64,000 nucleotides of DNA, taken from NCBI GenBank assembly GCA_964016885.1, contig OZ024741.1, positions 294,810,001 through 294,874,000 of the forward strand, given 5' to 3'. The position numbers were made by a program, and so were the translations under genes. Below, one piece after another: positions 8,230-60,100 of the stretch. This stretch comes from Eledone cirrhosa. Its lineage: Eukaryota. Numbering within the stretch: position 1 is the first letter of the stretch; each line of letters begins with the position of its first letter. Below the pieces are notes generated by a model, which saw nothing but the letters and a program-made list of their open reading frames with translations, ran no database searches and was not told the DNA's origin.

Positions 8230-8360
8230 GAAATGACTTCTACAGGACTAAAATAGTTTCATTCATAAGAAATCACCAGGAACGTCTTTACTCCTGTAGA
8301 ATTCATTTCTACTATAAAATGAAAATGCCTATACTCTTCTAACATATTGAGTACCTTTTT
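8230..8360. mobile_element. Small hammerhead-like repeat (family H1), inverted partial copy plus forward end
   Basis: Similar to 11916-11982, 12773-12880 and 60001-60100. The minus strand reads GACGTTC-CTGGTGA-T-TTCTTATGAA-T-GAAA...TA-GAAGTC. Flanked by (TA)n. Confidence 0.6.
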
Positions 8361-8403
8361 TAACTGTGATCATTTTCCAATATACATGGGAATCCACCTA
8401 TTT

Positions 8404-8446
<43 letters not shown>

Positions 8447-9139
8447 AACAAACTATTACATGGCTAGTACTGGTATTATTGTGTAGAGATCTATAAATGG
8501 GTATTATGTATGTATAGATTGAAGGACTGAAAGATTTATAACTGAATGCATATCAAATGGTATTAACCAGCTAGATCTGGTATCTTGTTTCAGGAGGTGA
8601 AGGAAAGTTCTGACCAACAACTAAAAATTAAAATAACAACAAAAAATACTACAGCCTAGTTTGAATCCTGATCTAATTTGCTATAGCCCCCACACCTTTA
8701 ACCAGTCATCCGGTGAATCCTAAATCTAATGAAATCTATTTTGGTCATTATGTCTTCAGCTATGTTTTGAATTTTCATTATAATTCTTTGTATGATTTCC
8801 AGTCGTTGTATTATGAACAATGTATTTTAATTTTGTCTGTTTGCTACAGAAGAGTAAAAGGCATTCTGATACTAAATACAACCACTTGGTATTAAAATGG
8901 ATGACTAAACTTTGTGTGTGTATGTGTGTACATCCATCAAACATGATTCTTTTCATCCTTTCACATAACTTGCTTCTTGATTAATCAAATATTTGCTCAG
9001 CAAGAATCATTTAGCTTAGTTTTTTAATAGATCACATTAATTAGTTTTGTTCATTGTAAAATTGTGCAGATTTAGCTATTCCATTAATGATTAGACAGAA
9101 ATTTGCCCAAGATAATGACTACAATTGCTCAAAGACAGT

Positions 9140-9360
9140 TATTGCTAGAAAAGTAAGCAGGAAGTTATACACAAGCTACTATTATACGAACCAACTCATG
9201 GGAGATGCAGTGAAGGAAGACCTGCTTTAATCTTTATCAACCAACTCTCAGGCAATACAAACCTCAGTAGGGAGCAGTTATCAGAAGTAATGGAAAATCA
9301 TGAATTGAGGAAAGACTTTGTCAGGAATGTTTAACTCTGGTTGCAATGATGGTGATGATG
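9140..9360 (+). mobile_element. RTE-like LINE C-terminal remnant (different subfamily)
   Basis: Translates as KLLLYEPTHGRCSEGRPALIFINQLSGNT...VMENHELRK, matching the RTE C-terminal GRP motif; short GATGGTGATGATG tail. Confidence 0.6.
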
Positions 9361-10992
9361 CTTAGACTTCAGTTACTACATTATGATATACATGGTTGTT
9401 AGTTGTTGAGATCTCTAAAATCTGGCAAGTGTATTTTAGTTGCACTGCCTAGTGGGTAATGAAAAAGAATTTTGCAGTTCAAGAATTTAGTTTTATATAA
9501 CCAGTAAAGTAATGAATTGACAATAGAGATGTGGTATTTCACAGACTGTTCATTAGTTAGCAAATGAGTAAGAATGTGAGGACACCTTAGTTTTGCAAAG
9601 AATATAACAATCTCTTTTGTACTCATGCCACTATCAAATGCCATAGAATCCATGTCAAAAATGGAATGTGTGAGTGAGAGATGGTTCTCTAACTTGTCCA
9701 AGATGATATATGATGATATATGATGATGGTGGTCTGGTGGTATGATGATAATGATACAATGATATTGATATCAAGGTGATAATAATGATGATGATGATAC
9801 TAAATTATTGAACTGTGTTACATTTTAAGTATTACATGAAGTAATGTAAATCAGCACCCCTTTAATTTCTGGTTAGAAATAGGGAAAAATAAATCATTAG
9901 ACATGAGAGAGAGAAATTATCTTATTTTTGGCTTTGTGGCAACTAATGATTACAGACCAGTGTGCTGAAACCTGATGGCCTATTTTATTGGAATATTGTT
10001 ATGAGGTTTACCGATTCAGGTTATATATATATATATATATATATATTGATACTGGGTATATCTGCTTTTAACTCTTATTCAGTTAACCAAATATAAATAC
10101 ACCTCTAGTATTATAGAATGTCAATAGCCTTATTATTCAGCCATGCTTACATAATGTATATTTAGATGTTTGTTGCAATAAATGCACACTCACTTTCATT
10201 TGCAAGTTGTTCTACTATTGTAAGTGTAATGAAGATCACAGTATATAACTCAAACAAAAACTGCAATGCTTTTTCAAATTGTAGACAATTTACATTGACA
10301 ATACATATACATATATTAGACATTTTTACATTGACAATGTGATATACATATACATATATTAGTAAAAGTAGATGATTGACCACAAGCTTGGCAGTTTTGA
10401 AGCCAAAACTGTTTAGCTCATTGTTAATCCTTTACTTTTATTAATACATCCACCCTGAATCTTAGCCTGTATCGAGCGCTTCCCTGATTTTGTAAAAAGA
10501 ATTTTATATCCAAAGTTGGCAAAGCACTTAGTCTAAGGAACGAGTTGTATTATACAAAATTTGGTCAAATTTACAACATTCTCATCTGTCAAATGCATGC
10601 ATTTCCCTGGGGAAATTATTTCCACAGCCCATCAGTTCTGGGAAGAAATAAGTGGAATTGGACAAAGATTTAGCCATGAGCATGTGAGGATAAAAGCCAA
10701 AGAGCTGCAGGCATTGGATGTATTTGGTTTAGAGTGATTATACTTTTAAACTGGTAAGTTAATTTGATTGTTCAGAAGAGCAGATATCAGTATGGTATCA
10801 GTAGAAAAGACATACAATCCCAACCACCACCACCATTCAACTAAGGTAATTACACCTCTTCCTTGAGATGTACTTGAACTTCTACTAACTTGCAAAAACA
10901 CATAATTTTTACACCAGCAAGGATTATCATTATAATTAAATAATTAATGTTATATTTAAATTATATATATATGATTTTATATATATATAAAA

Positions 10993-11312
10993 TCATCACC
11001 ATCATCATCATGTCCGCTTTCCTTGCTTGCAAGGGTGGGACGGGTCTTATTAAGCACGATATCTCTCTATTCGTCATGGGATTGTAATATCTAGTTACTG
11101 TAGGTTCACCAGGATGAGCACTCGATGCATAGATTCCAGTAGGTATCTGTTGTACTAGGCAGAGTGTAATAAAAAGGATGAAGTGTTAGATCTTCATTAC
11201 GTTTATTGAGGTGTGACGTGCATTTCGCGATTGATCTGCTCATGGTTTGATCTGTATCGATCTGGCCTGATGCTGGAATCAAGAGCACATCGGACTTCTG
11301 TCATTACCATAA
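10993..11312 (-). mobile_element. RTE-related 3' UTR fragment with (GAT)n tail inserted in (TA)n
   Basis: (CAT)n followed by GTCCGCTTTCCTTGCTTGCAAGGGTGGGACGGG, similar to the RTE terminus at 15040-15085. Confidence 0.6.
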
Positions 11313-11878
11313 CAGTATATATATATGTATATTTACTTATATATATATACACATGTATTTTAATTTTCAGAAACTTTAAATGATCAGGGGAAATAACTTG
11401 ATATATTTATTCCATCTGTTTGTGTTCTGAGTTCAAATCCTACTGAATTCGACTTAGCTTTTCATCCTTCTAGAGTTAAGAAATAAACAGTTTAGGGTGA
11501 TGGAATACTGTTATTTTGCACACTAATTTAACTTAGGCTGTTTCATTGATCAAACAACCGAAATTCTCATCATTGAAATCAACTTACGTTCAATTCATTA
11601 TCACTAAGATAAAACAGTTCTTTACTTTAGGAATCTTAAAATCTGTTGTTTTAACCCTTTTAGCATTTAAACCAGCTGTTTAAATATTAGTTTTCTGTCT
11701 CCTGAATAGATTGCAATCAGAATGAAAAAGATGTAAAAAAAATATGGAAACCGAAGAAATAATTTTCAAGTAACTAATCCAATTTTTCAAACTGTAATTT
11801 AGCAATATTAAGATAGAATGGTCATGAATGATACAATAAAATTATAGGTAAGTGGGAATTGGCAAACTCGTTAGATAT

Positions 11879-11914
<36 letters not shown>

Positions 11915-12001
11915 CATCAGGAAAGCCCTTATTATTTCCTTCGAATGAAACAATTCTAGTCCTGTAGAAGCCATTCCTATATTAGATATATATATATATG
12001 A

Positions 12002-12762
12002 CCTGGTCATTAAACATTTTGACAACATGTGGGGCAGAGATTTTAAACAAACTTTTTGCACTCGACAAAAGGTATTTTGTACAATGTAGGACATATATTA
12101 AGACACTTCCACTGATGAATAGATCATGTCTTTTGGTGCCTTACCCAAATCGTTAGTATATTATATATATATATATATATATAGTATTTATTCCATTGAA
12201 TCTGAATATAATGAATCAACACAATTTTGTCATTTCCTCTAATTTGTCAGAGTATCTTTAAACAGAAAAAGCAAGGTAACTTAACTGAATAACTCATCTT
12301 TCTAACCAAATCCAATTTTTTACAGGCTTCATCTGCATTGTGGAGGTACATGGTTTGTGGTTAAAGTTTTGAACACACAATCATAAAGACCTGGGTTTGA
12401 TTCCCAGACTGGGTAAAGCAATGTGTCTTTGGATTCGGTTAGAAAGATGAGTTATTCAGTTAAGTTACCTTGCTTTTTCTGTTTAAAGATACTCTGACAA
12501 ATTACAGGAAATGACAAAATTGTGTTGATTCATTATATTCAGATTCAGTGGAATAAATACTATATATATATATATGCATATATATATATATATATATATA
12601 TAATATACTAACGATTTGGGTAAGGCACCAAAAGACATGATCTATTCATCAGTGGAAGTGTCTTAATATATGTCCCACATTATACAAAATACCTTTTGTC
12701 GGGTGCAAAAAGTTTGTTTAAAATCTCTGCCCCTCATGTTGTCAAAATGTTCAATGACCAGG
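12002..12762. repeat. Long inverted duplication (arms 12002-12315 and 12429-12762, spacer ~113 bp)
   Basis: The arms are reverse complements with only scattered substitutions and a different internal (TA)n length. Confidence 0.95.
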
Positions 12763-12772
12763 GCATATATAT

Positions 12773-12834
12773 ATCAGGAAAGCCCTGATGATTTCCTTCG
12801 AATGAAACAGTTCTAGTCCTGTAGAAGCCATTTC
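12773..12834 (+). ncRNA. Hammerhead-ribozyme-like motif, family H1 (core intact, helix I 5' strand degenerate)
   Basis: CTGATGA(12785-91)-T-TTC/CTTC/GAA-T-GAAA-CAG/TTCTAGTC/CTG-TA-GAAGCC. A direct-repeat copy with a mutated core lies at 11916-11982. Confidence 0.55.
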
Positions 12835-12913
12835 TATATTAAATATTCATACTCTGCTATGTAATGAGTACCTTACTTACTGTGGTTACCCCCAATTGAA
12901 CACAGACACACAT

Positions 12914-12954
<41 letters not shown>

Positions 12955-13517
12955 TCCTTTCACTGTGTTTTAGAGTTCAATTTACTTAAGTATCCATATG
13001 TAGTAATACTATGTCTGAAAGGGTTAAAATATTTAATTTGTTACATTGATATAATTGAATAAAATGTCTAAACTCCATTGGGAAAATTAGTTGTTTTGTT
13101 TCAAAAATTGTGTTTAATAGGATTTGTGAACAATTTCAGGTATGCAAGCAACACATCATGCTAATTTTTTCAAAATGAATTCTGTTTTGTACTAGTTGAT
13201 ATTTTGAAGAGATTTACTTGATGAAGTAGACAAAAGTCATTTATCAATTATTACTGAAAATATACAGATGCATCTAACAAAGAGCTATTTACTTCGTGTT
13301 CCTTTGAATTGGCAAATGCTTAGTGGTTAATGAGGACTTTGGAAGGATTGTATTGCTTGCTATAAATAAAATCTTTGAAATATGTTCTGTACACAAGACT
13401 GCAACTACATTTATGCAATTGATGCTTTAATGGTACAAGCAACATGCATGGGAAAAAAGTATAGTGACCAAGTATTTAGATGTACTTCAATTGAAGTTTT
13501 AAGCAACACACTGTCAA

Positions 13518-13709
13518 CAGGACCTAATTAGACCTATAGGGGCCCGGGGCAGTTCAGATATGGAGGGCCTCCTATATAACAACACACACACATTTTATTT
13601 ATAGCAAGCAATACACACACACACATATAAACAGAGGGAGAGGGGTCTCTGTTTGATGAGGGAGGCCCAAAGCATTCACCTCCATCTATCCCCAATAAAT
13701 CTGGCCCTG
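13518..13709. mobile_element. hAT-type MITE
   Basis: Imperfect TIRs CAGGACCTAATT / AATCTGGCCCTG and a perfect 8-bp TSD ACTGTCAA (13510-13517 and 13710-13717). Confidence 0.85.
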
Positions 13710-14289
13710 ACTGTCAAGCACATTCTTTAAGACTTAATAGGTAGTTAACTTCAATGGAATGTAAAATATTATCTAGTGTGATGATTAAAAGTTTGTAGAT
13801 TACAATACTGATCAAGTATTTACCAAAATGGAAGACTTTACTTGCTAAGTTGAAAAAACAAATAGCATAGAAAGTTTTGAAAGAACAGTGATGCCTGGTA
13901 GTATCTTCACATGTATTTTGAGGTCATAATCACTTCTATTGAGCAGTGTTTTCATCAAGTGGTAAGAAATGCTCAGCATAGCTGGACAGCAGAAAGTCTT
14001 GAGAAAAGAAAACCCCACAACTGAGTGTTTTTGGCCCTTAACTTCTTACACTTTAAGGGAGCTGAGCCACATCCAGGTCATGATTCCTGGATGCCCTTCT
14101 GCTGACATTTAACCATTCAGATATCAGAGATTTGCTGTGTAGTTAAACCATATGGATTAAATTTGAAGTTGTATTTAAGCCAGGAGACATTGCCTTTAAA
14201 GACAATCAACAAAGAAAGAAGCTAATTAGGAAAGTTATGCCAATAGCATTGGAATGAAATCTTTGATAGCTAAAATGCTAACATTTGAC

Positions 14290-14420
14290 AGAAGTTGTGA
14301 CCTGTAGATAGTATCAGCACTGGAAAGACCAATGGAAACATTGTTTCGTTGGTCAGATTTGATGAGTTCCACCCTACTTGGTAAGCGAGTAAGGTCTGGG
14401 ATCTTGTCGATCAATCCCAA
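14290..14420 (+). repeat. Unclassified dispersed repeat
   Basis: ACCAATGGAAACATTGTTTC...ATTTGATGAGTTC...AGGTCTGG recurs at ~47585-47720 (+) and partly at ~48975-49040 (-). Confidence 0.7.
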
Positions 14421-15020
14421 AAATATATATAAAAAATACATATATTTTCAGTTTGGTTAACATTGTAGATAATTTGAGGTGGAGAATATCTTATGGAAAG
14501 CACCTAATGTAAGAGATTTGTACAGTTTTTCAACATTTACTGGCAAATCCTGCAACACCTGCTATGGCTGAACAACCATTTTCTCTAACAAAATGATTAA
14601 TAAGATATCTTCGGTCAAGAATAACATAAGAGATATTTAATTTCTCTGGCTCTCCTTTCGTAGCACACAAAAAACAACAAAATAATAAAATCAAACAAAT
14701 ACAGACACATAGAGAAAATAAATCTGATTGTAACTGCTGCAGGATTTGCTTCCCAAAATGAAAATAAGCATAAATATTTTGGCAAAGTCTGACTGGTTTT
14801 ATGCTAAATTCAGTTTAGTAATCAAGTTTTATACTTACAACTGTTTGTGTCTCTTAGAATAGCATACTGTGGTGGATAATTTATAATACATACATTAAAA
14901 ATTCTTATCAATGCTATCCAGTCTTCCCAGTTATGGAATAACTCAGTCAATAGTCACACAGAATTCATGTATTATTTTGTGCTTGCATTTACAGTTATCT
15001 TTGAACATTCATTTGTATAT

Positions 15021-17490
15021 CATCATCATCATCATCATCAACGTTTAACGTCCGTGTTCCACGCTTGCATGGGTTTGGACGGGGGTAGTCCCACTTGAGG
15101 CAAGAGTGATTGTCTTGCTCGCATAGGACTGTCTGGCAGGTTTTCTACAGTTGGATGCCCTTCCTAACACCAACCACATTTACAGTGTGGGTCTGGGAGG
15201 TTTTTACCGTGTTGCCTACACGGCCACATTACAGCGTGGACTGTGTGTTTTTTTGTCGTGACACCTACACGATCGCATTTGTTTCGGCCTGGATGGCGCG
15301 GCACCAACATAACTTTACATAGAACGGGGTGGTGTGGATGGGGTGGGGGTGGTGGGACGGGGTGTATTTTGTTAGAGATGCCTACTGGCTGGAGTAGGTT
15401 TTACTATATATTTAGGTAAGGCGGGTCTTCTCTGTTACTGAGTACCGCCAAAGGTCTCGGTCCAGTGACATTGTCTTGGAGAGGTGTAAGTGTGTGATGT
15501 CGGAGTTTATCAGCTCGTCCCAGGTTTTTCTAGGTCTGCCTATTCCGTGACTACCGTCTATCTTTATTGCCCTGCACTTTGTTATACAGCTATCGACTTT
15601 CATGCGTATCACGTGTCCATACCAACGTAGCCTTCTCTCGAGTAAACAACATCTGATCCCTCTTATCTCTAATTTTTTCCTTAGTTCGTTTATGCTTTGC
15701 CGTTCACGTATATTACTGTTACACATCCAGCGGAGCATGCAAGCTTCGTTCCTCTCTAGTCTGCGTATATCCTCTGCACACATTGCCCAGGTCTCACTGC
15801 CATGCAACATTGCTGTTCGTATGCAGGCATCGTACAACCTGCCTTTCATTTTTAGGGAGAACCCTTTAGCAGCTAATAGTGGTATAAGCTCTCTGAACTT
15901 TTTCCAACCAGTTCTGACTCTAGCTACAGTACTTTCAGAGCACCCTCCCCCACTGCTGATTTTATCGCCCAGGTAACGGAAGCTGTCCACTATTTCTATA
16001 GAACCCTCTGCGCAATTGAAAGAGCTAGTATTTTGTGGGCACTTGCTGCTACTTATTGCACCAGAACACCGGCCACATGTAAAATCTATGTTCTTAGTTA
16101 GCTTACCTGTGATCCCACTACATCTTTTATGCACCCATACTTTGCATTTAGGACATAAAATGGAGTTTCTACCTACGCCTTTCCTACACACCGAGCACGA
16201 CCATTTCCCAGAAGGGACCGCCACCTTGTCTTCTTTCCTACAAACTAGAACTTTGGTCTTAGCCAGGTTAATTTTAAGTCCTTTTGACTCTAGGCCGTGC
16301 TTCCATGTTTGGAATTTCTTCTCTAGCTCGGCCATTGATTCCGCTATGAGTGTCAGGTCGTCTGCGTATAGGAGTTCCCATGGGTAGCCTGTCTTGAACT
16401 CCTCTGTTATAGCCTGAAGGGCAATAATAAATAGTAGGGGGCTGAGAACAGAGCCCTGATGGACGCCAACTTTTACGCTAAACTCTTCACTATATTCGTT
16501 GTTAATTCTAACCTTGCTGACTGTTTCTTTATACATGGCTTGTATAGCCCTCACAAGCCATTCGTCAACGCCTAGTTTTCTAAGAGCCCACCAGATAATG
16601 GAGCGGGGGACTCTGTCGAAGGCTTTCTCCAAGTCGACAAAAGCTAAGTAGAGGGGTTTACCTTTAGCTAGGTACTTCTCCTGTAGTTGTCGTACTATGA
16701 AAAGAGTGTCTGTGGTACTTTTGCCTGACACAAACCCGAACTGCATTTCATCTAGGTCAATTCTCTCTCTGATTAGTTGCGCTATTACTTTTTCCGTGAC
16801 CTTCATGCCCTGGTCGATTAATTTAATGCCTCTATAGTTACTCCTATCTAGGGCGTCTCCTTTACCCTTATAACAGTTAACGATGATGCTGCTATGCCAG
16901 TCCTTCGGAACAACCCCATTCTGTACGACTTGGTTAACTATGCGGGTGACCATGGTGTGTCCCACCGTGCCAGATGCCTTCAGCATCTCAGCAACTATTT
17001 CCGAAGGCCCAGCCGCCTTACCCGTCTTCATATCCTTGATTGCCTTACTTATTATACTCCCCTCGACTAACACTGCTGGTCCCTCTATTGGGTCGATATG
17101 GGGGAGACTGTCTTTCTCCCATTTATTCTCCTCATTTAGTAGCCTTTCATAGTGACACTTCCAAGCTACCTTCTTATCAGTGTCGGTGATGGCAAGTATG
17201 CCATCATCGTTAAGTACACACTTCTCCCCGACAATATCATGGTTTTCCTTGACGCATTGCCTAGCAATCCTGAACACCTCACGTTTTTGGTCATCGCGTT
17301 GTAGAACATGCTTGAACTTTCTTTCCTCAGCTTCCCTTCTTGCTAAGTACACTTCTCTCCTAGCTTCCCTCCTGGCCACTTGATACTCTACTTCCCCCAT
17401 CCTGCCATACTTTCCAAGCCTGCTTTTTGGCCTTAATTGACCCCTCCACCTTACTGTTCCACCACCATGTTACTCTCCTCCTGCCTACAG
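15021..17490 (-). mobile_element. RTE-clade LINE, 5'-truncated, with 3' UTR and (GAT)n tail
   Basis: RT ORF, a 3' UTR with ~50-bp internal repeats, and (CAT)n at 15021-15040. The 5' end abuts (TA)n and no APE endonuclease domain is present. Confidence 0.95.
15412..17400 (-). CDS. RTE reverse transcriptase (N-terminally truncated ORF, 662 aa) with an internal PHD-like Cys/His finger
   Basis: NYRGIKL, QFGF, FVDLEKAFDRV, GVHQGSVLSPLLF, LLYADD, FRYLG, RLRWYGHV and GRPRKTW motifs. The upstream VTWWWN motif lies in another frame, so the annotated Met is not the real start. Confidence 0.93.
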   Translation of the reverse strand: MGEVEYQVARREARREVYLARREAEERKFKHVLQRDDQKREVFRIARQCVKENHDIVGEKCVLNDDGILAITDTDKKVAWKCHYERLLNEENKWEKDSLPHIDPIEGPAVLVEGSIISKAIKDMKTGKAAGPSEIVAEMLKASGTVGHTMVTRIVNQVVQNGVVPKDWHSSIIVNCYKGKGDALDRSNYRGIKLIDQGMKVTEKVIAQLIRERIDLDEMQFGFVSGKSTTDTLFIVRQLQEKYLAKGKPLYLAFVDLEKAFDRVPRSIIWWALRKLGVDEWLVRAIQAMYKETVSKVRINNEYSEEFSVKVGVHQGSVLSPLLFIIALQAITEEFKTGYPWELLYADDLTLIAESMAELEKKFQTWKHGLESKGLKINLAKTKVLVCRKEDKVAVPSGKWSCSVCRKGVGRNSILCPKCKVWVHKRCSGITGKLTKNIDFTCGRCSGAISSSKCPQNTSSFNCAEGSIEIVDSFRYLGDKISSGGGCSESTVARVRTGWKKFRELIPLLAAKGFSLKMKGRLYDACIRTAMLHGSETWAMCAEDIRRLERNEACMLRWMCNSNIRERQSINELRKKLEIRGIRCCLLERRLRWYGHVIRMKVDSCITKCRAIKIDGSHGIGRPRKTWDELINSDITHLHLSKTMSLDRDLWRYSVTEKTRLT

Positions 17491-17549
17491 GCCTATGTAT
17501 ATATATATAAATAAATATACACGGGTGCGTATGATTGTGTATATAAGAT

Positions 17550-17928
17550 TATATTAATAAAAGGAATTCCAACTTTGTCTGATTTACTCGTTTTATTTAC
17601 ATTCCTTTAAAATTATAATGATACTATAACGAAATAGTATGGTAGAATGTTAAGTGTTAATTGAACAAGTACTTTCATGCTTTCGCAATCTTCAAATTCA
17701 TATTGTGTGGTGACAGTCAAGTTTGCAATTTTCAACTGTTGAAAATTACAAACTTGACTGTCACCACAGAATATGAACCTGAAGATTGCGAAAGCATGAA
17801 AGTACTTGTTCAATTAACACTTAACATTTAATATTCTACCATACTATTTCGTTATAATATTATAATTTTAAAGGATTGTAAATAAAAAGAGTAAATCAGA
17901 CAAATTTGGAATTCCTTTTATTAATATA
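17550..17928. repeat. ~380-bp near-perfect palindrome (centre 17737), repeat family H2
   Basis: Arms are reverse complements around TTTTCAAC-T-GTTGAAAA; flanked by (TA)n. Confidence 0.95.
17774..17812 (+). ncRNA. Minimal type I hammerhead ribozyme candidate (family H2)
   Basis: Helix I TGAAC/GTTCA; core CTGAAGA; T-TGC-GAAA-GCA-T helix II; GAAA; palindromic GTAC in place of helix III; UU cleavage dinucleotide. The mirror copy at 17662-17700 (-) has C3>U. Confidence 0.7.
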
Positions 17929-17984
17929 TATATATATATATCATCATCATGTTCAATACTTGAGATAGTGGAGTATGATTATAT

Positions 17985-18099
17985 TAGAATGAATCGGGAC
18001 CCAAAGACTGAGCTCCTGCCATTTTGACAGCTAATTCCAGGCTGGAATTAGCTGTCAAAACTGCAAGAACTCAGCCATCAGTCCCCAACTCATTCTAAT
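17985..18099. repeat. Imperfect palindrome, centre ~18040
   Basis: TTTTGACAGCTAATTCCAG-G-CTGGAATTAGCTGTCAAAA core with degenerate outer arms (ATTAGAATGA / TCATTCTAAT). Confidence 0.8.
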
Positions 18100-18874
18100 C
18101 ATCATCATGACCGTTTTACATCAGTTCTTCCATGCTAGCATGGGTTAGACGGGTTGTCCTGTTGTGGGCAGTGTCTGGTCAGCTGACCATGCCTTGCTCA
18201 TAGAGGAACTGATTTTGGCTTGATTTCTACAGCTGGATGCCCTTCCTAACACCAACCTCATTTACAGTGAGTGCTGGGTGTTTTATTCCGTGGCGCCTAC
18301 ACGTCCACTTTACAGTGTGGGCTGGGTGCTTTTTTGCCGTAACACCTCCACGACCACTTTGCAGTGGGAGGGTGTGGGGGCATATTGTCTATATGCTTCA
18401 GCTTGTACCCATGGCAGGTCGGTACTCTGTATTACTGCATGACGCCAGAGGTCACGGTCGTGTGTCATCTCCTTTGAGAGGTGTAATTGGGTAAGGTCGG
18501 CTTTTATCACCTATCCCAGGTCTTCTTGGGTCTCCCCACTCTGCGGTTTCCATCGACTTCTAGTGCTCTGCACCTTTTTATGCAGCTGTCATCCTTCATA
18601 CACATAGCATGTCCATACCAACGCAACCGCCTCTCCTGCACACAGCATTGATTCCTCTTATGCTCAGTCTCTCTCTCAATTCATTTATGCTTTGCCGTTC
18701 GCGTATATTACTATTACACATCCATCGGAGCATGCAGGCTTTGTTTCTCTCTAATTTACGTAAGTCTTCCACCTTCAGCGCCCAGGTCTCACTACCATGT
18801 AACACTGCTGTTCGGATACATGCATCATACAGCAATGTTACATGGTAGTGAGACCTGGACGCTGAAGGTAGAAG

Positions 18875-18875
<1 letters not shown>
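18098..18875 (-). mobile_element. RTE LINE 3' fragment (second subfamily) with an inverted 5' tip
   Basis: Codes YDACIRTAVLHGSETWALKVEDLRKLERN...; 18829-18874 is the reverse complement of ~18766-18810, followed by (TA)n. Confidence 0.9.
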
Positions 18876-18908
<33 letters not shown>

Positions 18909-22753: not shown

Positions 22754-22800
<47 letters not shown>

Positions 22801-29282: not shown

Positions 29283-29500
29283 ATTAGAAATATAAGCTAT
29301 CGCCATATTTTGACTAAAGAAATTACTTAGCCTGATAGTGGGGTTAAGAACCCTCGGAGAAATGGAAAAAGATGAGTATTGTAAATGATGAGTATGTACG
29401 TCAATACTCATCTTTTTCCATTTCTCCGAGGGTTCTTAACCCCACTATCAGGCTAAGTAATTTCTTTAGTCAAAATACTGCGATAGCTTATATTTCTAAT
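29283..29500. repeat. Inverted repeat (arms 29283-29381 and 29402-29500, 20-nt spacer)
   Basis: ~99-bp arms differing at about two positions; within (TA)n. Confidence 0.95.
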
Positions 29501-35505: not shown

Positions 35506-35609
35506 TGTGTGTGTGTTAATATATAAATATATATAAAAAACTAAAAAATAGTTTTATATCTCTACATGGCTGAATACAAGCAATGTAAATCTGGGTTTTT
35601 CGAAAATAT

Positions 35610-36212
35610 TAATAATAATTGTTTCTACTTTTGGCACAAGGCCAGTAATTACCCAGTACATTACTGGTACTTTATTTTAACGACCCCGTAAGGATGAAAG
35701 GCAAAGTTAACCTCGGCGGGATTTATACTCAGAATGGAAAGGGCCATAATTCTATACGTCAAAGCATGGTGTCCCACCCTCTACCGACACTGCCAATCCA
35801 CCGCCCTAATATTAATAATAATTGTTTCTACTTTTGGCACAAGGCCAGCAATTACCCAGTGTATTACTGGTACTTTATTTTATCGACCCCGTAAGGATGA
35901 AAGGCAAAGTTAACCTCGGCGAGATTTGAACTCAGAATGGCAAGGGCCATAACTCATTGCGTCAAAGCATGGCATCCGACCCTCTGCCGGTACTGCCAAT
36001 CCACCGCCCTCTAATATTAATAATAATTGTTTCTACTTTAGGCACAAGGCCAGCAATTACCCAGTACATTACTGGTATTTTATTTTATCTACCCCGTAAG
36101 GATGAAAGGCAAAGTTAACCTCGGCGGGATTTGAACTCAGACTGTAAAGGGACGTAACTATGCTAGAAAGCATGGCGTCCAACCCTCTACCGATACTGCC
36201 AATTCACCGCCC
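35610..36212 (-). mobile_element. Three head-to-tail family-B SINE copies (~203-bp period)
   Basis: Units ~35610-35806, 35812-36009 and 36018-36212, highly similar and joined by TAATATTAATAATAA. Confidence 0.92.
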
Positions 36213-36339
36213 TCTAATATTAATAATAATAATATTCAATTTGTTTGCAATTATGCAAGCAGCCTCTTTAAGCCATGTGGTTAGAATGAACCCATCATTA
36301 TTGCTCTTGAGTTGGCATATATATATATATGTGTGTGTT

Positions 36340-36374
<35 letters not shown>

Positions 36375-36638
36375 GGAAAAAATGAAACAAAATTTCATTT
36401 CCCACTCTTAGTACGGCTGTTACTTAAATATAAATATGTATACGTACATACATATATGTATACAGACGTACAGTAGTATGTATATATATATACATACATG
36501 CACACATATATATATATGTACGTATGGATTCACCGAACATTTATTATAACGCTCGCTGTGTTTGTAAACAAACATCCCGTATTAAGCCGTAGTGTCTAGC
36601 AACCATCATTGCTCTTTTGTTCAACACTGACAAAGGAA

Positions 36639-36679
36639 CGCTGTACTAGTTTCAAGCTTATTAGCTATCGTCAGCAACG
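36639..36679 (-). ncRNA. Second intact H3 hammerhead candidate
   Basis: The minus strand reads CGTTG-CTGACGA-T-AGC-TAATAA-GCT-T-GAAA-CTAG-TA-CAGCG; only the helix II loop differs from the plus copy. Confidence 0.8.
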
Positions 36680-36989
36680 TATACCTTCCTGCCAGATAGT
36701 TGGACGTCCCAATCCATACGTACATATATATATGTGTGCATGTATGTGTATATATATACATACTACTGTACGTCTGTATACATATATGTATGTACGTATA
36801 CATTCTTATATTTAAGTAACAGCCGTACTAAGAGTGGGAAATGAAATTTTGTTTCATTTTTTCCGTTTATCATTTTCGGTGCACCCGGCCAATTAACCCA
36901 CTCGATATGCAAATTGGGCTACTCAGCCATTAATATGCATAAGGAAAGTATATACTTTCGGACGTTCAACTATCTGGCAGGAAGGTATA

Positions 36990-37030
36990 CGTTGCTGACG
37001 ATAGCTAACAAGCTTGAAACTAGTACAGCG
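36990..37030 (+). ncRNA. Minimal type I hammerhead ribozyme candidate (family H3)
   Basis: Helix I CGTTG/CAGCG; CTGACGA; T-AGC-TAACAA-GCT-T; GAAA; palindromic CTAG; cleavage triplet GUA. Confidence 0.8.
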
Positions 37031-37237
37031 TTGAACAAACGAGCAACGGTGGTTGCTAGACACTACGGCTTAATACGGGATGTTTGTTTACAAACACACT
37101 GAGCATTATAATAAATGTTTGGTGAATCTATACGTACATATATATATGTGTGCATGTATGTATATATATATACATACTACTGTACGTCTGTATACATATA
37201 TGTATGTACGTATACATACTTATATATATATATATAC

Positions 37238-37339
37238 AGAACTGTCGCTGGTTTGGTTTCTACAGCTGGATGCTCTTCCTAATGCCAACCTCATTTACAG
37301 TGTGGACTGGGTGCTTTTTATCATGGCACCAACATGACC

Positions 37340-37399
<60 letters not shown>

Positions 37400-37436
37400 G
37401 GTCATGTTGCTAAAAAGCACCCAGTCCACACTGTAA

Positions 37437-37467
<31 letters not shown>

Positions 37468-37670
37468 GGTCATGTTGGTGCCATGATAAAAAGTACCCAG
37501 TCCACACTGTAAATGAGGTTGGCATTAGGAAGAGCATCCAACTGTAGAAACCAAACCAGCGACAGTTCTGTATAAGTAAAATATGGTCATCGCAGTACAT
37601 TGTCTCACAGTACAACTCATCTAATCTTTGCTAGTGGGAAAAAATGGATCATTAAATGATCATGATGATG
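37238..37670. mobile_element. RTE 3' UTR fragment with a fold-back inverted duplication through (TA)n
   Basis: 37238-37343 is the reverse complement of ~37462-37570; a short third piece at 37395-37436 lies between two TA tracts; GAT tail at ~37660. Confidence 0.88.
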
Positions 37671-44087: not shown

Positions 44088-44124
<37 letters not shown>

Positions 44125-47244: not shown

Positions 47245-47325
<81 letters not shown>

Positions 47326-52516: not shown

Positions 52517-52552
<36 letters not shown>

Positions 52553-54048
52553 GTCATGTGCTTATAGACCATGACCATGGAGCATTCTTGCACAAATGGA
52601 TTTATATAAATATATATTCATGTCATATATGCACAAATGCAGGGGTTCAAATAAGCAAGCATATGCATCTTCCTGTGAATGTATGCCAAAAAATGTATAT
52701 TATGCATATATATAGATATGCAAATTAAAATATTTCCATGCTTGCATATACATGCTCTAGATAATTGATTTGGATATTACACACACACACACAAGTATAA
52801 ATAATCTGCACAGAAAAATACACCCACCCACACATGCATCACAATTTTATCTTCCTCCACATCTCTCTCTCTCTCAACACACACAGACATATACAAATAT
52901 ATGCACATATTGTAGAGGTGCATGGTGAAAATTTCTCTTCTATTTATTAAACCGTATCACCTGTCAGTTACCATTTGTTTCTCCTCTTTCTATCCCTGAT
53001 TTCTCTGTAAGACTAACTGACTGGTTATTCTCTTAGTTTGCTTTCTACCCATTGTTCCTGCATTCACTCACATCAACTATCCCTTTTCCTCACTTTCATT
53101 TGTGTTGTGATAGCACCAAACACTTGTTATAATTTCTCCACTATGCTAACCTTGTTCGAAGCTATTCCGGACACTTAAATTCATATAACTAGCATATACA
53201 AACAAAGACATACATAGCCATACACATACATACAAACATATATAAATACATACATACATACATTCATGCATGCATACATATATACATACATAAACACATA
53301 TACCTGTATGCATACATACAAAGCTATACACATACATACATACATATATAAATACATACATACATGCATATATATATATATATACAGGCATACATATATA
53401 CGGGCTTGTATATATATATATACATACATACATTGACAAAAGCAGAAACAGATAGAGTTCTTCCTTCTTCTAAATGATGCTACTATCAAAAGCATCAGCA
53501 CTACCAATTTTTATATGAAAGGCTACTTTTACTGAAGCCACTTGATGCTTCTCTTCTCCTTCTTTCTTTCATTCTCATTCTATACTTTCATTATGTGTTT
53601 TGTGTAGTCTCTCATCTCATCGCTCTCTTTCACACAGACATGCATACATACATTCCATACACATACATACATACACATATATACACACACATACATAGTC
53701 TTCCCATCAGTCCTTTTCTTTCCCTCTTCATTACACATTGTATACACTTTCTTTCCATCTTTCATACAGTCTCTTTCTCTGACTTTAACTCCCCCCCCCA
53801 CACTTTAATATCTTTCTTTCGATATTCTGGCAACATTCTTTCATTTGTTTTCTGTCTCTTCTCTTTCCTTTGCTATTACATTCTCTCTAAGTGTGAGCGT
53901 AAACTAATCTCTTCAAAGTAGAGTCCACTGCAAATCTTTATGTAATATAAGCAACTCAGCGATTCCCTCCTCTCATTATACATGTGCATCCACACCGATT
54001 GTGTCATGAAAGCTAACACACATACTGAGGAAAGACTGTTATAACTGT

Positions 54049-54093
<45 letters not shown>

Positions 54094-54205
54094 ACAAAAT
54101 TATAGAATATATATTTACATAACAAAATTATAGATACATATATATATATATATATATACACACACATAAGTATAAACATATATATTTGCTCTTCCCACTT
54201 AGAAT

Positions 54206-54237
<32 letters not shown>

Positions 54238-55648
54238 CATACATACATACAATAAAAGCCAGAAGAACATACATACATACATACATATTATGTAAAACAG
54301 TACTGACTCGTAAAATCAAAGTGTTTCACACATACATAGCTTTTTCTTTGTTGGAATCACAACTCTAGTTTGTCATAGAAGCCAGCCAGCTTGTTAACCA
54401 GCTAACTAACCAACCAACTGACCACAAATAAGCAGCTTCAACTCTAGTAGTAATAAAAGACAGAAAGATTGTAAGAAAGTAACAGGTATCTCTGATTGAA
54501 GCAAGCAAGAAGCTTCTTTCTCTCACTGTTAAGGTGATACAAGTGGGCTGAGTTTTATGTTTAACCACCTGGTCAACATCTTTCTCTGACTGTTGCTATT
54601 GCTGTTGCTGCTACTGCTACCGTTGCTGCTGCTGCTGTTGCTGCTTCTATTACTGCTGCCAGTGACACTGCTACTGCTGCTGCTGCTGCTGCTGTCATAG
54701 TAGTTGTTGCCACAGCTGTTCCTTCTGCTTCCACTGCTACTACTACTACTACTACTACTACTACTGCTTCTCATCTTTGCTTATTATCAGTGTGGTTGCC
54801 ACTACCACTAATTCTGTAACAGTAGCTGTCACCCACTATTTCCAATAACATACTCTTGTTGTGTCTCCAGCGGAAAAAAAAAAAAAAAAAAAAAAAATCA
54901 AAAACAAAAAGGAAAACAAATATCAAAAACAAAAAATAGCTAAAAAAAAAAACAACAACAACAACAAATCCCCATCAACAACAGCAATAGCAGCAACACC
55001 CTGCCTAGGCATCATCATCATTGCTACTGACATAAGATAACAAGCAACACCCCTTATTCTCCTTTTCCTTATCACTATCATCATCATCATTATCAGCATC
55101 ACCTTTCTGTCATCTTCATTGCTTCATCAGTAACATCACAGTCAGTCAGTCACCCACCCACTTCAACTGCCATTGTTGCTGTTACTTTGTTGTTATTACT
55201 TCAGTGTTGGTGTTAGTTAATCACACTAAAAAGAAGACACTGTGGTCCTTATCGTTGTTGTTAGGGGTGAGGCACCTCTGCTCCCTTCTATTTCTCAGCT
55301 TTCTTGCCTATGTGTGTTACGCACATGAGCAGGTTTTGCCACCATCGTCGATCTGGTTGCTGTACCTTGTCCAGATATCCTTCCAAGACCGGCCGTATGT
55401 TTCGAATGATATTATACCAGCTTTTTCCACCACTGAGAAAACATTTACTTTTCGCAAGAGAAAAACGTAAGTAACAGAAAGAATACAACAACAACAAATC
55501 TATAACAATAACAAACAAAAAAAAAATGAAACGATTAATTTTTTTAAAGAAAGGCAATAAAAAAAAAGCAACACTACTTCAACATTCTCTGAAATGCATG
55601 CATATGTATATATATATATATATATGTGTGTATATATATATGTGTGTG

Positions 55649-55679
<31 letters not shown>

Positions 55680-55680
55680 A

Positions 55681-55752
55681 CAGTGTCCCCCAAAAATCTA
55701 TACACATTTATAAAACGCTGTTAAAGTTTGTATACATTTTTGGGACACCCTG
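55681..55752. mobile_element. Tiny Tc1/mariner-type MITE
   Basis: CAGTGTCCCCCAAAAATCTATACA / TGTATACATTTTTGGGACACCCTG TIRs, inside a TA/CA microsatellite. Confidence 0.7.
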
Positions 55753-55846
55753 TGTATATATATATACACACACACACATATACATTATATATATTTTATA
55801 TACATACATATATATATATAATGTGTGGCTGTATATGTGTGTATAA

Positions 55847-55886
<40 letters not shown>

Positions 55887-56549
55887 GTTTGTATGTATGT
55901 ATATACATATATATATATATATATATATAGGTAAATAGATCTTGTGACAAATATGTGACATCATTTGACAGTCCTGTTAGTTTCTGGAAAAATTTCATTT
56001 CGACATTTCAATACAGTGTTGTTGAAATATTCAACATACATGTATGCACATGTATTTATGAGTGTGTGTGTGAAGAGTGTGTATACAAATACTTGTGCAT
56101 GCATCTATGTACATATGTTTGCATATATGAATAAACACATTCATGCAGGCTTGTGTGTGTGTGTATATATATATGTGTGTGTGTGTGTGTGTGCATGCAT
56201 GTATGTGTGTGTGATGTCAGTAGATAAGCTGTGCGAATGTCTGTGTACAGCTCATTGTTTATTTGACAACATACCAAAAACAATAATAATAATAATAATA
56301 GTTTAAACGAACACCCACTCCCAAATCAAAACAAAGCTAAAGAAAAATGCAAGTGATCCATATAAATGTGTGCAATACATATGCATGCATCATTTTTTTA
56401 ATGTGCATCAAAATAAATGAATAAACAAACACTGGAAGAATCCCATTTAGATGTAAATATATCACTCTTCAATGACGCCATCACCACCAAAATCAACCCT
56501 GAAAACATCTATAAAGGATTTATCCATTCTAAATACAACCCACCTATTA

Positions 56550-57395
56550 TTATTATTATTATTTTGACCCCCATAAGGATGAATGACAGAGGTTACCGTT
56601 CATCCTTACAGGGTCAATAAAATAATATACCAGTCATGTACTGAGGTCAATTTAATTGACTTTCTCCCCCCCTAAATTGTCGGCCTTGTCTTTAAATCAG
56701 AAATCATTATTATTATCATTATTATTATCATTATTATGGATTGGCAGAAATGGTAGAGTATCAAACACCATGTTTTGAGTCATAGAGTTACGGCCCTTTG
56801 CGTTCTGAGTTCAAATCCCACCAAGGTTAGCTATACCTTTCGTAAATTAAAGTACCAGTAATGTACAGAGGTTGATTTAATCGACTTTCTCCATCCCCCA
56901 AAATTGTTGGTCTTTGGCCTAAATCAGAAACTGGGATAAAGAAATCATTATTATTACTATAACAACAACAAGGGCAGTGGATTGGCAGTATCGGTAGAGC
57001 ATCGGATACCCTGCTTTGCAACATAGTGTTATGGCCCTTTACGTTCTGAGTTCAAATCCCACTGAGGTTACCTTTGCCTTTCATCCTTATAGGGTAGATA
57101 AAATAAAATACCAGTAATGCAATGGGGTCGATTAAATTGACTTTCCCTTTCCCTTGAAATTGTTGGCCTTGTGCTTAAATCAGAAATCATTATTATCATT
57201 AATGATGGATTGGCAGTATCGGTAGAGGGTCGGACGCCATGCTTTCCAGCATAGTTACGTCCCTTTACGATCTGAGTTCAAATCCCGTCGAGGTTGACTT
57301 TGCCTTTCATCCTTACGGGGTCGATAAAATAAAGTACCAGTAATGCACTGAGTTATTGCTGGCCTTGTGCCTAAAGTAGAAACAATTATTACATT
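56550..57395 (+). mobile_element. Cluster of four tandem family-B SINE copies, the first truncated with an inverted 5' tip
   Basis: Copies ~56595-56710, 56737-56950, 56972-57195 and 57205-57395; a further fragment at 57845-57970. Confidence 0.88.
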
Positions 57396-58492
57396 ATAAC
57401 AACAACAGCAAAAGAAGTTTCTTTTATATGTTTAATATCATTTAAATTTTTTTTTTTTTTTTTATTAATATTCCCTGTTTGCAATTAACATTCCCTTCCT
57501 CCTCCTCTATCTTCCCCTCACTTGATTTCTTGTTTTGGTTTAATGTTCACAGTTTTCTCATTTTTGAAATTAATTTTTAGCATCTAATCAACTTGTCTTC
57601 CCCCTATCTCTCTATTTCCCTCTCTTTATATCTCCCTCTTTATATCATTCTCTTTTTCCTTCCAATTCTTTTTCATTTATTTATTTTCTGTTTTGTTATG
57701 GCCTTTTGTTTTGCTTTTATTTGTTTGTTTGTTTGTATCCTGTTCATCTCTCTAGCTTGCTCTTTCTCTCGCATCTTTCATTGTTAATATGTTGTTTCCA
57801 ATTTATTCAATCTATTTTGAAATATTATTATTATTAAATCCTCCTAAGGTTTGCCTTTCGTCTTTCCAGGGTCAATAAAATAAAGTACCAGTAACACACT
57901 GGGTTCAATTTAATTAAACCTCCCCCAAAAAATTGTTGACCTTGTACCTAAATCAGAAACCATTATTATTTTTTCTTGGAGGGGTGGGGGGTGGGGCATT
58001 TAAAAAATATTTTAGCCATAAAATAAATTCACTTCGTTATCATCATCATCATCAAAACATTCACCATCCCTGTTAACATCGTCATCATTATCATCATCAT
58101 TATCACCATTATTGTCATCATCATTACCATTGTTATCACCATTGTCACCATCAATGTCATCAATATCATTACTGTTATCATCATTACCATCATCATTATT
58201 GGTAGAATACATTATCACACAGTTTACCTGCAATATTGATAGAGTTGTTTGTGTTGTTGTTGTCTGTTGTTATTCTTACTCTTGCATCGCTGCTACTGCA
58301 TGATAATAACAATAATAATAATAATGAGTTTCACTGAACAGTTGCAAACATTTTACTACTCACACATTGAAAATTAAAAATCAGTTAATTAAATAAAAAA
58401 ACAATTTAAATCTACTAATTGCCTCTCTCTCCCTCCTCCCTCTCTCTCTCTCTTTCCTCCCTCTCTCTCTCCTTCCTCCCTCTCTCTCTCTA

Positions 58493-58536
<44 letters not shown>

Positions 58537-58549
58537 TACATACACACAC

Positions 58550-58586
<37 letters not shown>

Positions 58587-59239
58587 CACACACACATATA
58601 TATATATACACACACACACATACACGTGTTCATGTGTGTGTTTATATATATGTACATAATACTATATATCTATATTTACATGTATTTATACATGCTTATA
58701 ACATCTTTATGTTCATGGGTATATAAAAATGGTATATGTATGTGTATGAATGTATGTATGGGGGTATATATAGAGAGAGAGATAGACATTTTTGTGTTAT
58801 ACTATTATGTACATACATATCTTATATGTATATTTACATGTTTATATACACATATATACATTTAGCATTGTTAGATTCATATGTACACAAGATGCTACAT
58901 GTACACAAATGTGTGCATGTCTTCAGAAATGTATATGCATCATAGTACACATAAATTGCATTCCACACTTCATACACACACACTCACACATTCACATATA
59001 CATCTATATATTAATTTCAAAAATGTCATTATTCCGTGTGTCATAATTCTTGATTGTCATTGGTTCATAGGTTTCAAACGACTCCGCCCACCTCAACAAC
59101 GCCAAACTTAAATTAATATGCATAATGCCAATGAGGGAGTGAGAGGGGAGAGTAAGAAATAGAGAGGCAAAGTAAACGCTGTAACTATTACCATGTGTGC
59201 GTGTGTATGTACATGCGCGTATGTTTATGTGTCTGTGCG

Positions 59240-59482
59240 TGCATGCAGTGTTCCACAGAAAGTAAAAGCAATTCGACTTTATCAAACAGTGAACTACAGC
59301 GGCGATGGTGTGCAGCCAGGAATGAAGAAAAACGGGCCGAACAGCGCCATCGGAACGCCGAACTTCAGAGGCAAAGACGTGCCACCATGAATGAAGAGGA
59401 GCTGGCTGAACAACGCCAACGAAACACTGGAGCCAAGCAGCGACGGCGTGCTGCGATAGTTGAAGACGAACTGGCTGAGCAT
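59240..59482 (+). mobile_element. Probable Helitron RepHel N-terminal repeat-coding fragment
   Basis: RR..AARNEEKRAEQRHRN / RRATMNEEELAEQRQRN charged repeats; CpG-rich; adjacent to a clear Helitron. Confidence 0.55.
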
Positions 59483-59500
59483 CATCTTTTATATTAATTA

Positions 59501-59860
59501 TCTATATCTATATCTACATATAATATAAAAGATTGGAACTTCCATCATCCTTTTGAGAAACATGGAACAACCACGCCTATGCAATGATACACGTTTTACA
59601 GTCAGGCAGAAGATGAACCATCTCCTAGAGGTCACTATTCTAGGTGGGAGCACCTAGAATTGTTCATATACTATGCACAAACGGTACAACGAAGAATCTG
59701 GTATATCTGGAAGATTTTTTTTTACTGTTTTTTGTATCACACAGACACACGGACTCACCTCATACTGTAACCAGACAAACATCCAATACAGTCATTTTCT
59801 CTTTTACCTGTCTTCTCTTATCATCTTTTTTACCCGGGCGAAGCTGGGTACGTCAGCTAG
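59501..59860 (+). mobile_element. Non-autonomous mini-Helitron
   Basis: A|TCTAT...ATAAAA 5' end; Pif1-like helicase fragments KIGTSIILLRNMEQPRLCNDTR...EVTILG and TKNLVYLE; 3' hairpin TACCCGG/CTGGGTA then CTAG|T. Confidence 0.9.
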
Positions 59861-60000
59861 TATACATAATTTGTTTATTGTTCACAAACTCTTGATCCAT
59901 CTAAACAAGATATGCATAGTGCACATCGTTATTTATACTAGCTATATGCCTGCGTATATATATGTAAGTGGTCAATGTAAATCGGGAGGCAACGACTTTT

Positions 60001-60100
60001 AAAAAGGTATTCAATACATTAGTCGAGTATAGTTATTATAGAAATGACTTCTACGCAACTAGAACTGTTTCATTCAAAAGATAACACCAAGAAAGTCAAC
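60001..60100 (-). repeat. Degenerate family H1 copy
   Basis: GAAATGACTTCTAC..ACTAGAACTGTTTCATTC matches 8230-8265 and the reverse complement of 12800-12834. Confidence 0.7.

What the first reader, a model, noticed from the sequence alone, without database searches (positions are those of the whole stretch)
8230..60100. Three unrelated small repeat families share one non-canonical hammerhead architecture (U-U at the base of helix II)
Seen: H1 (12785), H2 (17779) and H3 (36995, and 36674 on minus) all read CUGANGA-U-[3-bp stem]-U-GAAA-...-UH. Their helix II stems differ (TTC/GAA, TGC/GCA, AGC/GCT), as do their helix I sequences, yet pairing is kept (H1 helix I only in the consensus), which is covariation-like support. 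Known: type I hammerheads, including minimal forms with a palindromic helix III that cleave as dimers, occur in Penelope-like elements and retrozymes; the canonical 10.1-11.1 pair is usually G-C. Inference: this may be a lineage-wide hammerhead variant marking a set of non-autonomous ribozyme retroelements that target (TA)n, which strict motif searches would miss. No Penelope RT/GIY-YIG ORF is in the window.
Basis: partly seen in the sequence, partly recalled or inferred. Interest (0 to 1): 0.85.

Follow-up and report, generated by a model that had tools for sequence, protein, structure and literature searches.

The report
U·U hammerheads in Penelope-derived repeats
Three repeat families here carry a real-looking self-cutting hammerhead RNA motif with a U·U mismatch, but that variant and its link to Penelope-type jumping genes are already published, so these are new examples of a known kind.

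Summary
Four sites read CUGANGA-U-stem-U-GAAA, against a mean of 0.006 in 1000 shuffles. H2 and H3 are complete type I hammerheads with a palindromic helix III. No H1 copy has both an intact core and helix I. The U10.1·U11.1 variant is not new: it is named in Perreault 2011, cleaves in an axolotl retrozyme (Cervera 2020), and occurs in 14 of 25 Hydra-clade Penelope-like (PLE) families, which nearly all insert in (TA)n (Craig 2021). It is not lineage-specific: I found it downstream of intact Hydra-type ORFs in metagenomes and in DNA-virus contigs. Reads show H3 is a very abundant head-to-tail unit of about 0.43 kb, with its 3' end on (TA)n and pairing-preserving helix I changes. That makes it a non-LTR retrozyme-like, probably PLE-mobilised element. 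H1 and H2 may be such elements or truncated PLE 3' ends. Rfam misses the motifs. Cleavage and expression are untested. The scan noted PLE-type hammerhead families in other genomes before. Verdict: new members of a known kind.

The parts
8226..8286 (-). H1a: decayed H1 hammerhead copy (core at 8279 with A6G), followed by (TA)n
8287..8372 (+). inverted, 5'-truncated copy of the H1 3' end, head-to-head with H1a (right limit approximate, read by eye)
   Evidence: sequence; fold-back helix
11916..11975 (+). H1b: decayed core (11928), helix I 5' strand locally inverted, between (TA)n runs
12773..12874 (+). H1c: intact core at 12785, U·U, 3-bp helix II, 4-bp helix III, predicted cut after A12823; helix I 5' strand inverted, so it cannot close locally
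60004..60097 (-). H1d: decayed core (60090); helix I strands as in the consensus
17774..17812 (+). H2 type I hammerhead: 5-bp helix I, U17786·U17797, 3-bp helix II with GAAA loop, 6-nt palindromic helix III, predicted cut after U17807
17510..17925 (.). H2 fold-back insertion centred near 17738: two head-to-head copies with TA runs outside; the left-arm hammerhead (17695-) carries C3U
36989..37031 (+). H3 type I hammerhead: 6-bp helix I, U37002·U37015, 4-bp helix II, 6-nt palindromic helix III, predicted cut after A37025
36638..36680 (-). second H3 hammerhead, in the inverted copy
36372..37229 (.). whole H3 insertion between (TA)n runs: inverted 5'-truncated copy 36372-36712(-), tail 36709-36870(+), then head-hammerhead-tail 36871-37229(+). 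Period 414 bp here, about 428 with the 14 nt that this copy lacks

Best explanation
H1, H2 and H3 are hammerhead-bearing 3' modules of Penelope-like retroelements of the Hydra-clade type, present as dead or truncated insertions in (TA)n. H3 has become a high-copy, non-coding head-to-tail unit of about 0.43 kb (a non-LTR retrozyme). Likely working. (1) Tandem or read-through RNA places two hammerheads near each other. The 6-nt palindromic helix III cannot close in one copy but pairs between two, and the double hammerhead cuts after UH (structure shown by folding; cleavage inferred from published homologous designs). (2) The monomer is ligated to a circle or stays multimeric (inferred). (3) An autonomous PLE reverse transcriptase with GIY-YIG endonuclease, encoded elsewhere, primes at a (TA)n target from a fixed point about 270 nt past the cut site. 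It copies through the hammerhead, sometimes more than one unit, and often adds an inverted 5'-truncated copy (anatomy shown; the enzyme is inferred). U·U at 10.1/11.1 is a tolerated substitute for G-C, not a new chemistry.
For: Motif far above chance. H2 monomer MFE already has helices I and II, and its dimer MFE pairs the helix III palindromes. 14 of 25 Hydra-clade families have U·U with a palindromic helix III, mostly 90-200 nt from the 3' end, and 26 of 27 listed Hydra-clade families have a (TA)n preference. In metagenomes, 40 of 124 U·U motifs lie less than 600 nt downstream of a same-strand PLE protein match, and two intact ORFs (L145, L179) carry the Hydra-clade RWK, DKT and CxCX5C motifs. 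38 of 107 such motifs have (TA)4 within 200 nt downstream, against 1 of 39 control stretches. All 8 window copies do too, against 23% of random positions (about 6 independent events, and H3's nearest runs are internal to the element). A covariance model of 30 metagenome motifs ranks the four H2/H3 sites first (E 7e-7 to 5e-4). H3 reads: 45,843 of 12,467,656 reads of X21 and 8,717 of 17,142,217 contigs of X1 lie on 351 bp. 36 X1 contigs go from 36870 into a TA run. Divergent contigs bridge tail to head at 36870/36871. 102 reads from 19 starts go back from 37140 to 36790. Helix I position 36992 (U to A or G) and its partner 37028 (G to U) change at matching rates (94/93%, 50/47%, 45/56%, 86/99.6%). 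None of the 40 listed variants hits the conserved core or either U. A U·U hammerhead cleaves in an axolotl retrozyme.
Against: No cleavage or RNA evidence for these copies. No partner PLE was found, since no genome is held. The published octopus family Hydra-1_oBim has a different hammerhead without U·U, so clade assignment rests on motif style and target only. The H3 + copy's MFE is an alternative fold (-13.9 kcal/mol against -1.8 for the hammerhead; helix I pair probabilities 0.03 or less), and the H3 double hammerhead (-20.4) is far above the dimer MFE (-37). No H1 copy is intact, and H1 scores only E 0.2-0.3 (2 of 4 copies listed) with the model. That model was seeded with a pattern taken partly from H2. 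25 of 65 variant rows were hidden, and the helix I changes are not phased. One X9 contig has 255 other bases before 36869. Unrelated repeats in the window also form fold-backs, so the inverted copies are not PLE-diagnostic. U·U also occurs in axolotl retrozymes and DNA viruses, so it does not identify the clade.
Confidence: 0.75

Rival explanations
1. All three families, H3 included, are just 5'-truncated 3' ends (pseudo-LTRs) of autonomous Hydra-clade PLEs; there is no separate non-autonomous element.
For: H1 copies start within about 15 nt of the core and H2 about 40 nt upstream of it, as short 5'-truncated copies would. Many metagenome U·U motifs are such truncated ends. The head of H3 (124 nt) is as long as the ORF-to-hammerhead distance in those loci (about 100-300 nt). 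One X9 contig continues 255 nt upstream of 36869.
Against: For H3, depth does not fall upstream of the hammerhead. The tail-to-head junction sits at the same place in divergent contigs and go-back joints exist. This fits a fixed monomer, not random truncation.
Confidence: 0.15
2. The units are retrozyme- or satellite-like repeats moved by another machine (e.g. the RTE-type LINE seen in the window) or spread by DNA-level recombination; the hammerhead is a relic and mostly inactive.
For: A recent LINE is present twice at 99% identity (RVT_1 E 2e-31). Fold-backs and TA flanks are common for many repeats here. H1 copies are decayed and the H3 folds compete with the hammerhead.
Against: Pairing-preserving subfamily changes in H3 helix I and changes confined to tolerated positions. 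An A-U to G-C exchange between H1 subfamilies. Close match to Hydra-clade hammerheads and their target. No LINE-like 3' tail was seen on these units.
Confidence: 0.08
3. Chance resemblance in AT-rich, palindrome-rich DNA.
For: The genome is rich in fold-backs; Rfam gives no hammerhead hit.
Against: 0 of 1000 shuffles reach 2 U·U sites. Rfam also misses the motifs in loci from both collection scans (0 hammerhead hits in 20 loci).
Confidence: 0.02

Closest known systems
Hammerheads of Hydra-clade Penelope-like elements (Craig et al. 2021, PMC8557442, File S2; Hydra magnipapillata row also in Cervera & de la Peña 2014, PMC4209133, Fig. S3)
   Same: Type I, CUGANGA-U-stem-U-GAAA in 14 of 25 families, short palindromic helix III, position near the 3' end, (TA)n target; H2's helix II is nearly that of Penelope-3_HM.
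   Different: No ORF in the window. H2/H3 palindromes are 6 nt, shorter than the 9-nt ones typical there. The listed octopus family lacks U·U, and none of 5 short window motifs occurs in that supplement.
Metazoan non-LTR retrozymes, esp. axolotl Rtz_353 with HHR_Amex2 (Cervera & de la Peña 2020, PMC7229834); PLE origin argued by Li, Clavereau & Pollet 2026 (bioRxiv 10.64898/2026.07.22.740005)
   Same: Non-coding tandem unit of a few hundred bases, low GC (37% for H3), one type I hammerhead per unit, U·U at the base of helix II, more active as a dimer.
   Different: H3 shows PLE-style insertion anatomy (fixed 3' end on (TA)n, inverted truncated copy). Circular RNA and cleavage are not shown here. 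The 2026 preprint has no octopus or mollusc mention.
Natural U10.1-U11.1 hammerhead core variant (Perreault et al. 2011, PMC3088659, citing Ruffner et al. 1990)
   Same: Same mismatch; reported as the best-tolerated mispair at this position.
   Different: There a rare variant in a mixed collection; here shared by three families of one animal genome.
Drosophila willistoni PLE hammerhead family 2 (Cervera 2014, Figs S3, S5A)
   Same: PLE-associated hammerhead with palindromic helix III, also found in 450-bp tandem repeats. It reads as U·U in the extracted text.
   Different: The PDF extraction dropped the GAAA column, so U·U for this row is my inference from token order.

Membership tests
Type I hammerhead ribozyme | Core CUGANGA...GAAA with A15.1-U16.1 and H17 | tested here: met
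   H2+, H3+, H3-, H1c; broken in H1a, H1b, H1d, H2-
Type I hammerhead ribozyme | Helices I, II, III can pair | tested here: met
   H2, H3: helices I and II in the monomer, III only across two copies; H1 helix I only in the consensus
Type I hammerhead ribozyme | G10.1-C11.1 (most common, not obligatory) | tested here: not met
   U·U in all; a published tolerated variant
Type I hammerhead ribozyme | Match to an Rfam hammerhead model | tested here: not met
   0 matches for H2 and H3 stretches at E<=10; none in the 150 of 202 rows shown for the window
Type I hammerhead ribozyme | Self-cleavage | not testable with these tools
   needs in vitro assay
Hydra-clade PLE | ORF with RT (RWK, DKT), CxCX5C linker and C-terminal GIY-YIG | tested here: not met
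   no remnant in the window; met in metagenome loci L145 and L179 that carry U·U hammerheads
Hydra-clade PLE | Hammerhead near the 3' end and insertion in (TA)n | tested here: met
   8 of 8 copies with (TA)4 within 200 nt; H3 3' end onto a TA run in 36 contigs
Hydra-clade PLE | Partial tandem and inverted 5'-truncated copies | tested here: met
   H3 both; H2 and H1a inverted; fold-backs also occur for unrelated repeats
Hydra-clade PLE | 3' end shared with an autonomous element of this genome | not testable with these tools
   no genome held
Non-LTR retrozyme | Non-coding tandem unit of about 150-450 bp with a type I hammerhead | tested here: met
   H3 only: period 414 (about 428), bridged junction, go-back joints
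Non-LTR retrozyme | Same unit structure for H1 and H2 | not tested
Non-LTR retrozyme | Expressed as linear and circular monomer RNA | not testable with these tools
   needs northern blot or RT-PCR across the junction

The most novel reading that the evidence does not exclude
H3 is a hugely amplified retrozyme, in an animal group where I found none described, whose insertions record the mechanism directly. It has a fixed 3' end on (TA)n about 270 nt away from the ribozyme cut, copies that read through the cut site and exceed one unit, and inverted truncated partners. This would be the footprint of a Hydra-clade PLE enzyme reverse-transcribing a ribozyme-made RNA circle in trans, the first retrozyme tied to that clade by target site rather than by co-occurrence.
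Probability: 0.35. Interest if true: 0.45.

Novelty: new member of a known kind. Interest (0 to 1): 0.22.

Why it matters
The motif itself adds little. The practical points are two. Rfam and G-C-bound descriptors miss U·U hammerheads, so ribozyme counts in such genomes are too low. And H3 is a very abundant test case for the still mostly inferential model that PLE enzymes mobilise ribozyme-made RNA circles, because its target and 3' end can be matched to a specific autonomous family.

Tried and rejected
Whole-genome search: no genome held. Rfam: no hammerhead match for the window, H2 or H3 or 20 loci from the collection scans. RNA evidence: no RNA holder listed, which says nothing either way. 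Runs with small shares were not used, except X9 and X4, which were laid. The repeat finder was swamped by TA repeats, so I used self-BLAST. Pfam gave no informative family for the two Hydra-type ORFs; they were classed by the motifs of Craig section 11. Rejected reading 'extra U after A9, then a normal closing pair': it destroys helix II in H2 and leaves 2 bp in H3 (by inspection). Rejected two other H1 cut sites (after GUU or GUC), which give no helix I. Read piles ending at 36845-36848 and 36912-36915 in X21 sit on AATT and have mixed continuations; treated as RAD library artefacts. The 37029 C>T variant is treated as an alignment effect of a 14-nt duplication. Lünse et al. 2017 on dimer-cleaving PLE hammerheads is recalled only; it is not held. 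Own-findings look-ups by place and by sequence were empty. The host being an octopus is my recall of its SINE-like repeats, not tested by any search.
Full report
Observation. A scan of both strands for CUGANGA, a stem and GAAA finds four sites with a Watson-Crick helix II of at least 3 bp: 12785+, 17779+, 36995+ and 36674-. All four close with U·U. In 1000 block-wise dinucleotide shuffles the mean was 0.057 such sites with any closing pair, 0.006 with U·U (max 1) and 0.001 complete type I motifs, against 4, 4 and 3 observed. H2 has a 5-bp helix I and H3 a 6-bp one. Both have a 6-nt palindrome as helix III, which cannot close in one molecule but pairs between two. H3's helix II is 4 bp. For H1, the register that works is a 4-bp helix III around an 8-nt loop, with the cut after GUA. 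The A15.1-U16.1 and 15.2-16.2 pairs and that triplet are kept in 4 of 4 copies. Three copies have damaged cores, and the one intact core (12785) has its helix I 5' strand inverted. So no H1 copy here should be active.

Anatomy. Self-BLAST shows four H1 copies, one H2 fold-back (17510-17925) and one H3 insertion (36372-37229). H3 reads: TA run, inverted truncated copy, a tail segment, then head-hammerhead-tail, TA run. H2 and H1a are also head-to-head pairs with their 3' ends pointing out to TA runs. All 8 motif copies have (TA)4 within 200 nt downstream, against 23% of random positions. These are about six independent events, and the nearest runs for H3 lie inside the element. Unrelated repeats in the window also form fold-backs, so inversion alone is weak evidence. 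No PLE ORF or remnant is present. No genome is held. The repeats look like those of an octopus, but that is recall, not a call result.

Reads on H3 (36790-37140, 4 of the 23 runs listed). 45,843 of 12,467,656 RAD reads (X21) and 8,717 of 17,142,217 contigs (X1) lie on the stretch, so the family is very abundant; the tool gives no copy number. 36 X1 contigs leave the stretch at 36870 into a TA run, which marks the 3' end. Contigs with many other letters bridge 36870/36871, depth does not fall on the head side, and 102 reads from 19 starts go back from 37140 to 36790. This fits a fixed head-to-tail unit of 414 bp, about 428 with 14 nt missing from this copy. One X9 contig has 255 other bases before 36869, and 499 loose-end rows were hidden. 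Of 65 variant rows, 40 were shown. Six fall in the ribozyme: N7, loop II, two changes at helix I position 36992, one at its partner 37028, and one I treat as an alignment artefact. None hits the conserved core or either U. Positions 36992 and 37028 change at matching rates in four read sets (94/93, 50/47, 45/56 and 86/99.6%), turning U·G into A-U or G·U. The changes are not phased.

Relatives elsewhere. 119 have a helix II of at least 3 bp and 93 a helix I of at least 4 bp. 40 of 124 lie less than 600 nt downstream of a same-strand match to a PLE protein (27 of the 60 with at least 500 nt upstream). Two loci hold intact ORFs with RWK, DKT and CxCX5C, the marks of the Hydra clade. Most of these motifs belong to one group of related families. 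A covariance model from 30 of them, chosen for pairing and diversity, ranks the four H2/H3 sites first among 23 matches at E<=10; H1c and H1a score only E 0.2-0.3. This test is partly circular. An IMG/VR scan gave 98 distinct U·U motifs, 68 of them type III, so U·U is not a marker of one animal lineage.

Literature, and what I saw of it. [quoted passage not shown] Cervera 2020 (PMC7229834; section 15 and passages) describes axolotl HHR_Amex2 with a U·U mismatch at the base of helix II: 22% cleavage in 1 h as a monomer, much more as a dimer, in a 350-bp retrozyme that makes circles. Craig 2021 (PMC8557442; section 11, passages, supplement part 2 of 59 and searches) tabulates Hydra-clade hammerheads. 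By my count 14 of 25 families (26 rows) have U·U, 26 of the 27 families listed have a (TA)n preference, and the octopus family Hydra-1_oBim lacks U·U. Cervera 2014 (PMC4209133; main text parts 1-2 of 4, supplement parts 1-2 of 3) calls G10.1-C11.1 highly conserved in minimal PLE hammerheads but lists a Hydra row with U·U, and probably a D. willistoni one. Li et al. 2026 (bioRxiv; parts 1-2 of 5 and passages; supplements not seen) argues that retrozymes derive from PLE pseudo-LTRs, mainly in vertebrates. Two reviews were seen as passages only. I found no description of these three families (searches; 0 of 5 motifs in Craig's supplement). Subscription papers and Repbase entries were not seen and may hold them.

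Mechanism. Shown: the motif, its pairing potential, the insertion anatomy, and for H3 the tandem unit, the 3' end and the variation pattern. Inferred from related published systems: dimer-dependent cleavage, circularisation, and reverse transcription primed at (TA)n by a Hydra-type PLE enzyme in trans. Against: the H3 folds compete strongly with the hammerhead, no partner PLE was seen, and nothing shows RNA. H1 and H2 could equally be truncated ends of autonomous PLEs.

Verdict. These are new members of a known kind; interest 0.22. The most novel reading left is H3 as a direct footprint of PLE-driven copying of a ribozyme-made circle (probability 0.35, interest 0.45). The scan has noted PLE-type hammerhead families in other genomes before; those notes were not checked here and did not change my reading.

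Noticed in passing
L001-L126 (IMG/VR contigs), e.g. L019/L052/L053, L020, L038, L047, L066: A widespread DNA-virus family of U·U hammerheads. Of 98 distinct motifs, 68 fold as type III (shuffled flanks: mean 0.8, max 4) and 18 as type I. 62 of the 68 lie just upstream of a ribosome-binding site and ATG, often 2-3 per contig. 11 of 31 downstream proteins matched PHROGs (ATPases, an HNH endonuclease, unknowns). Rfam found none in the 14 such loci scanned. One literature search listed no paper devoted to it. It may trim the 5' ends of phage mRNAs and deserves its own follow-up.
   Followed up: partly
L145:2704-4869(-), L179:24-2225(+): Intact 721- and 733-codon Hydra-clade PLE ORFs (RWK, DKT, CxCX5C) ending 249 and 307 nt upstream of U·U hammerheads in metagenome contigs; Pfam does not recognise them.
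   Followed up: partly
window 15412-17469(-) and 62595-64000(+): Two copies of a LINE (RT plus PHD-like finger; RTE-type by recall), 99% identical over 1404 nt, so recently active.
   Followed up: no
window 2-3390(-): Broken LTR-retrotransposon-like gag-protease-RT-RNase H-integrase remnant, read from ORF translations.
   Followed up: no
window 29283-29500, 17975-18108, 18765-18875, 37238-37569, 11990-12774: Several near-perfect fold-backs of unrelated repeats; fold-back formation seems general in this genome and would make long double-stranded RNA.
   Followed up: no
window 11916-11927 and 12773-12784: In H1b and H1c the 7-nt helix I 5' strand is inverted between short inverted repeats, giving a hairpin that sequesters the core. 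Read backwards it complements the G-C variant of the 3' strand, a compensatory change relative to H1a and H1d.
   Followed up: partly
window 6261-6299(-): Weak hammerhead-like hit (E 0.04) with a 7-bp outer helix but G8 changed and no helix II; probably chance.
   Followed up: no
window 36790-37140, run X4 (organism B): One 389-nt contig spans 36814-37127, so H3 or a close relative is also filed under a second species label, at low depth.
   Followed up: no
window 35605-36230: Three tandem 203-bp copies of a dispersed SINE-like repeat.
   Followed up: no
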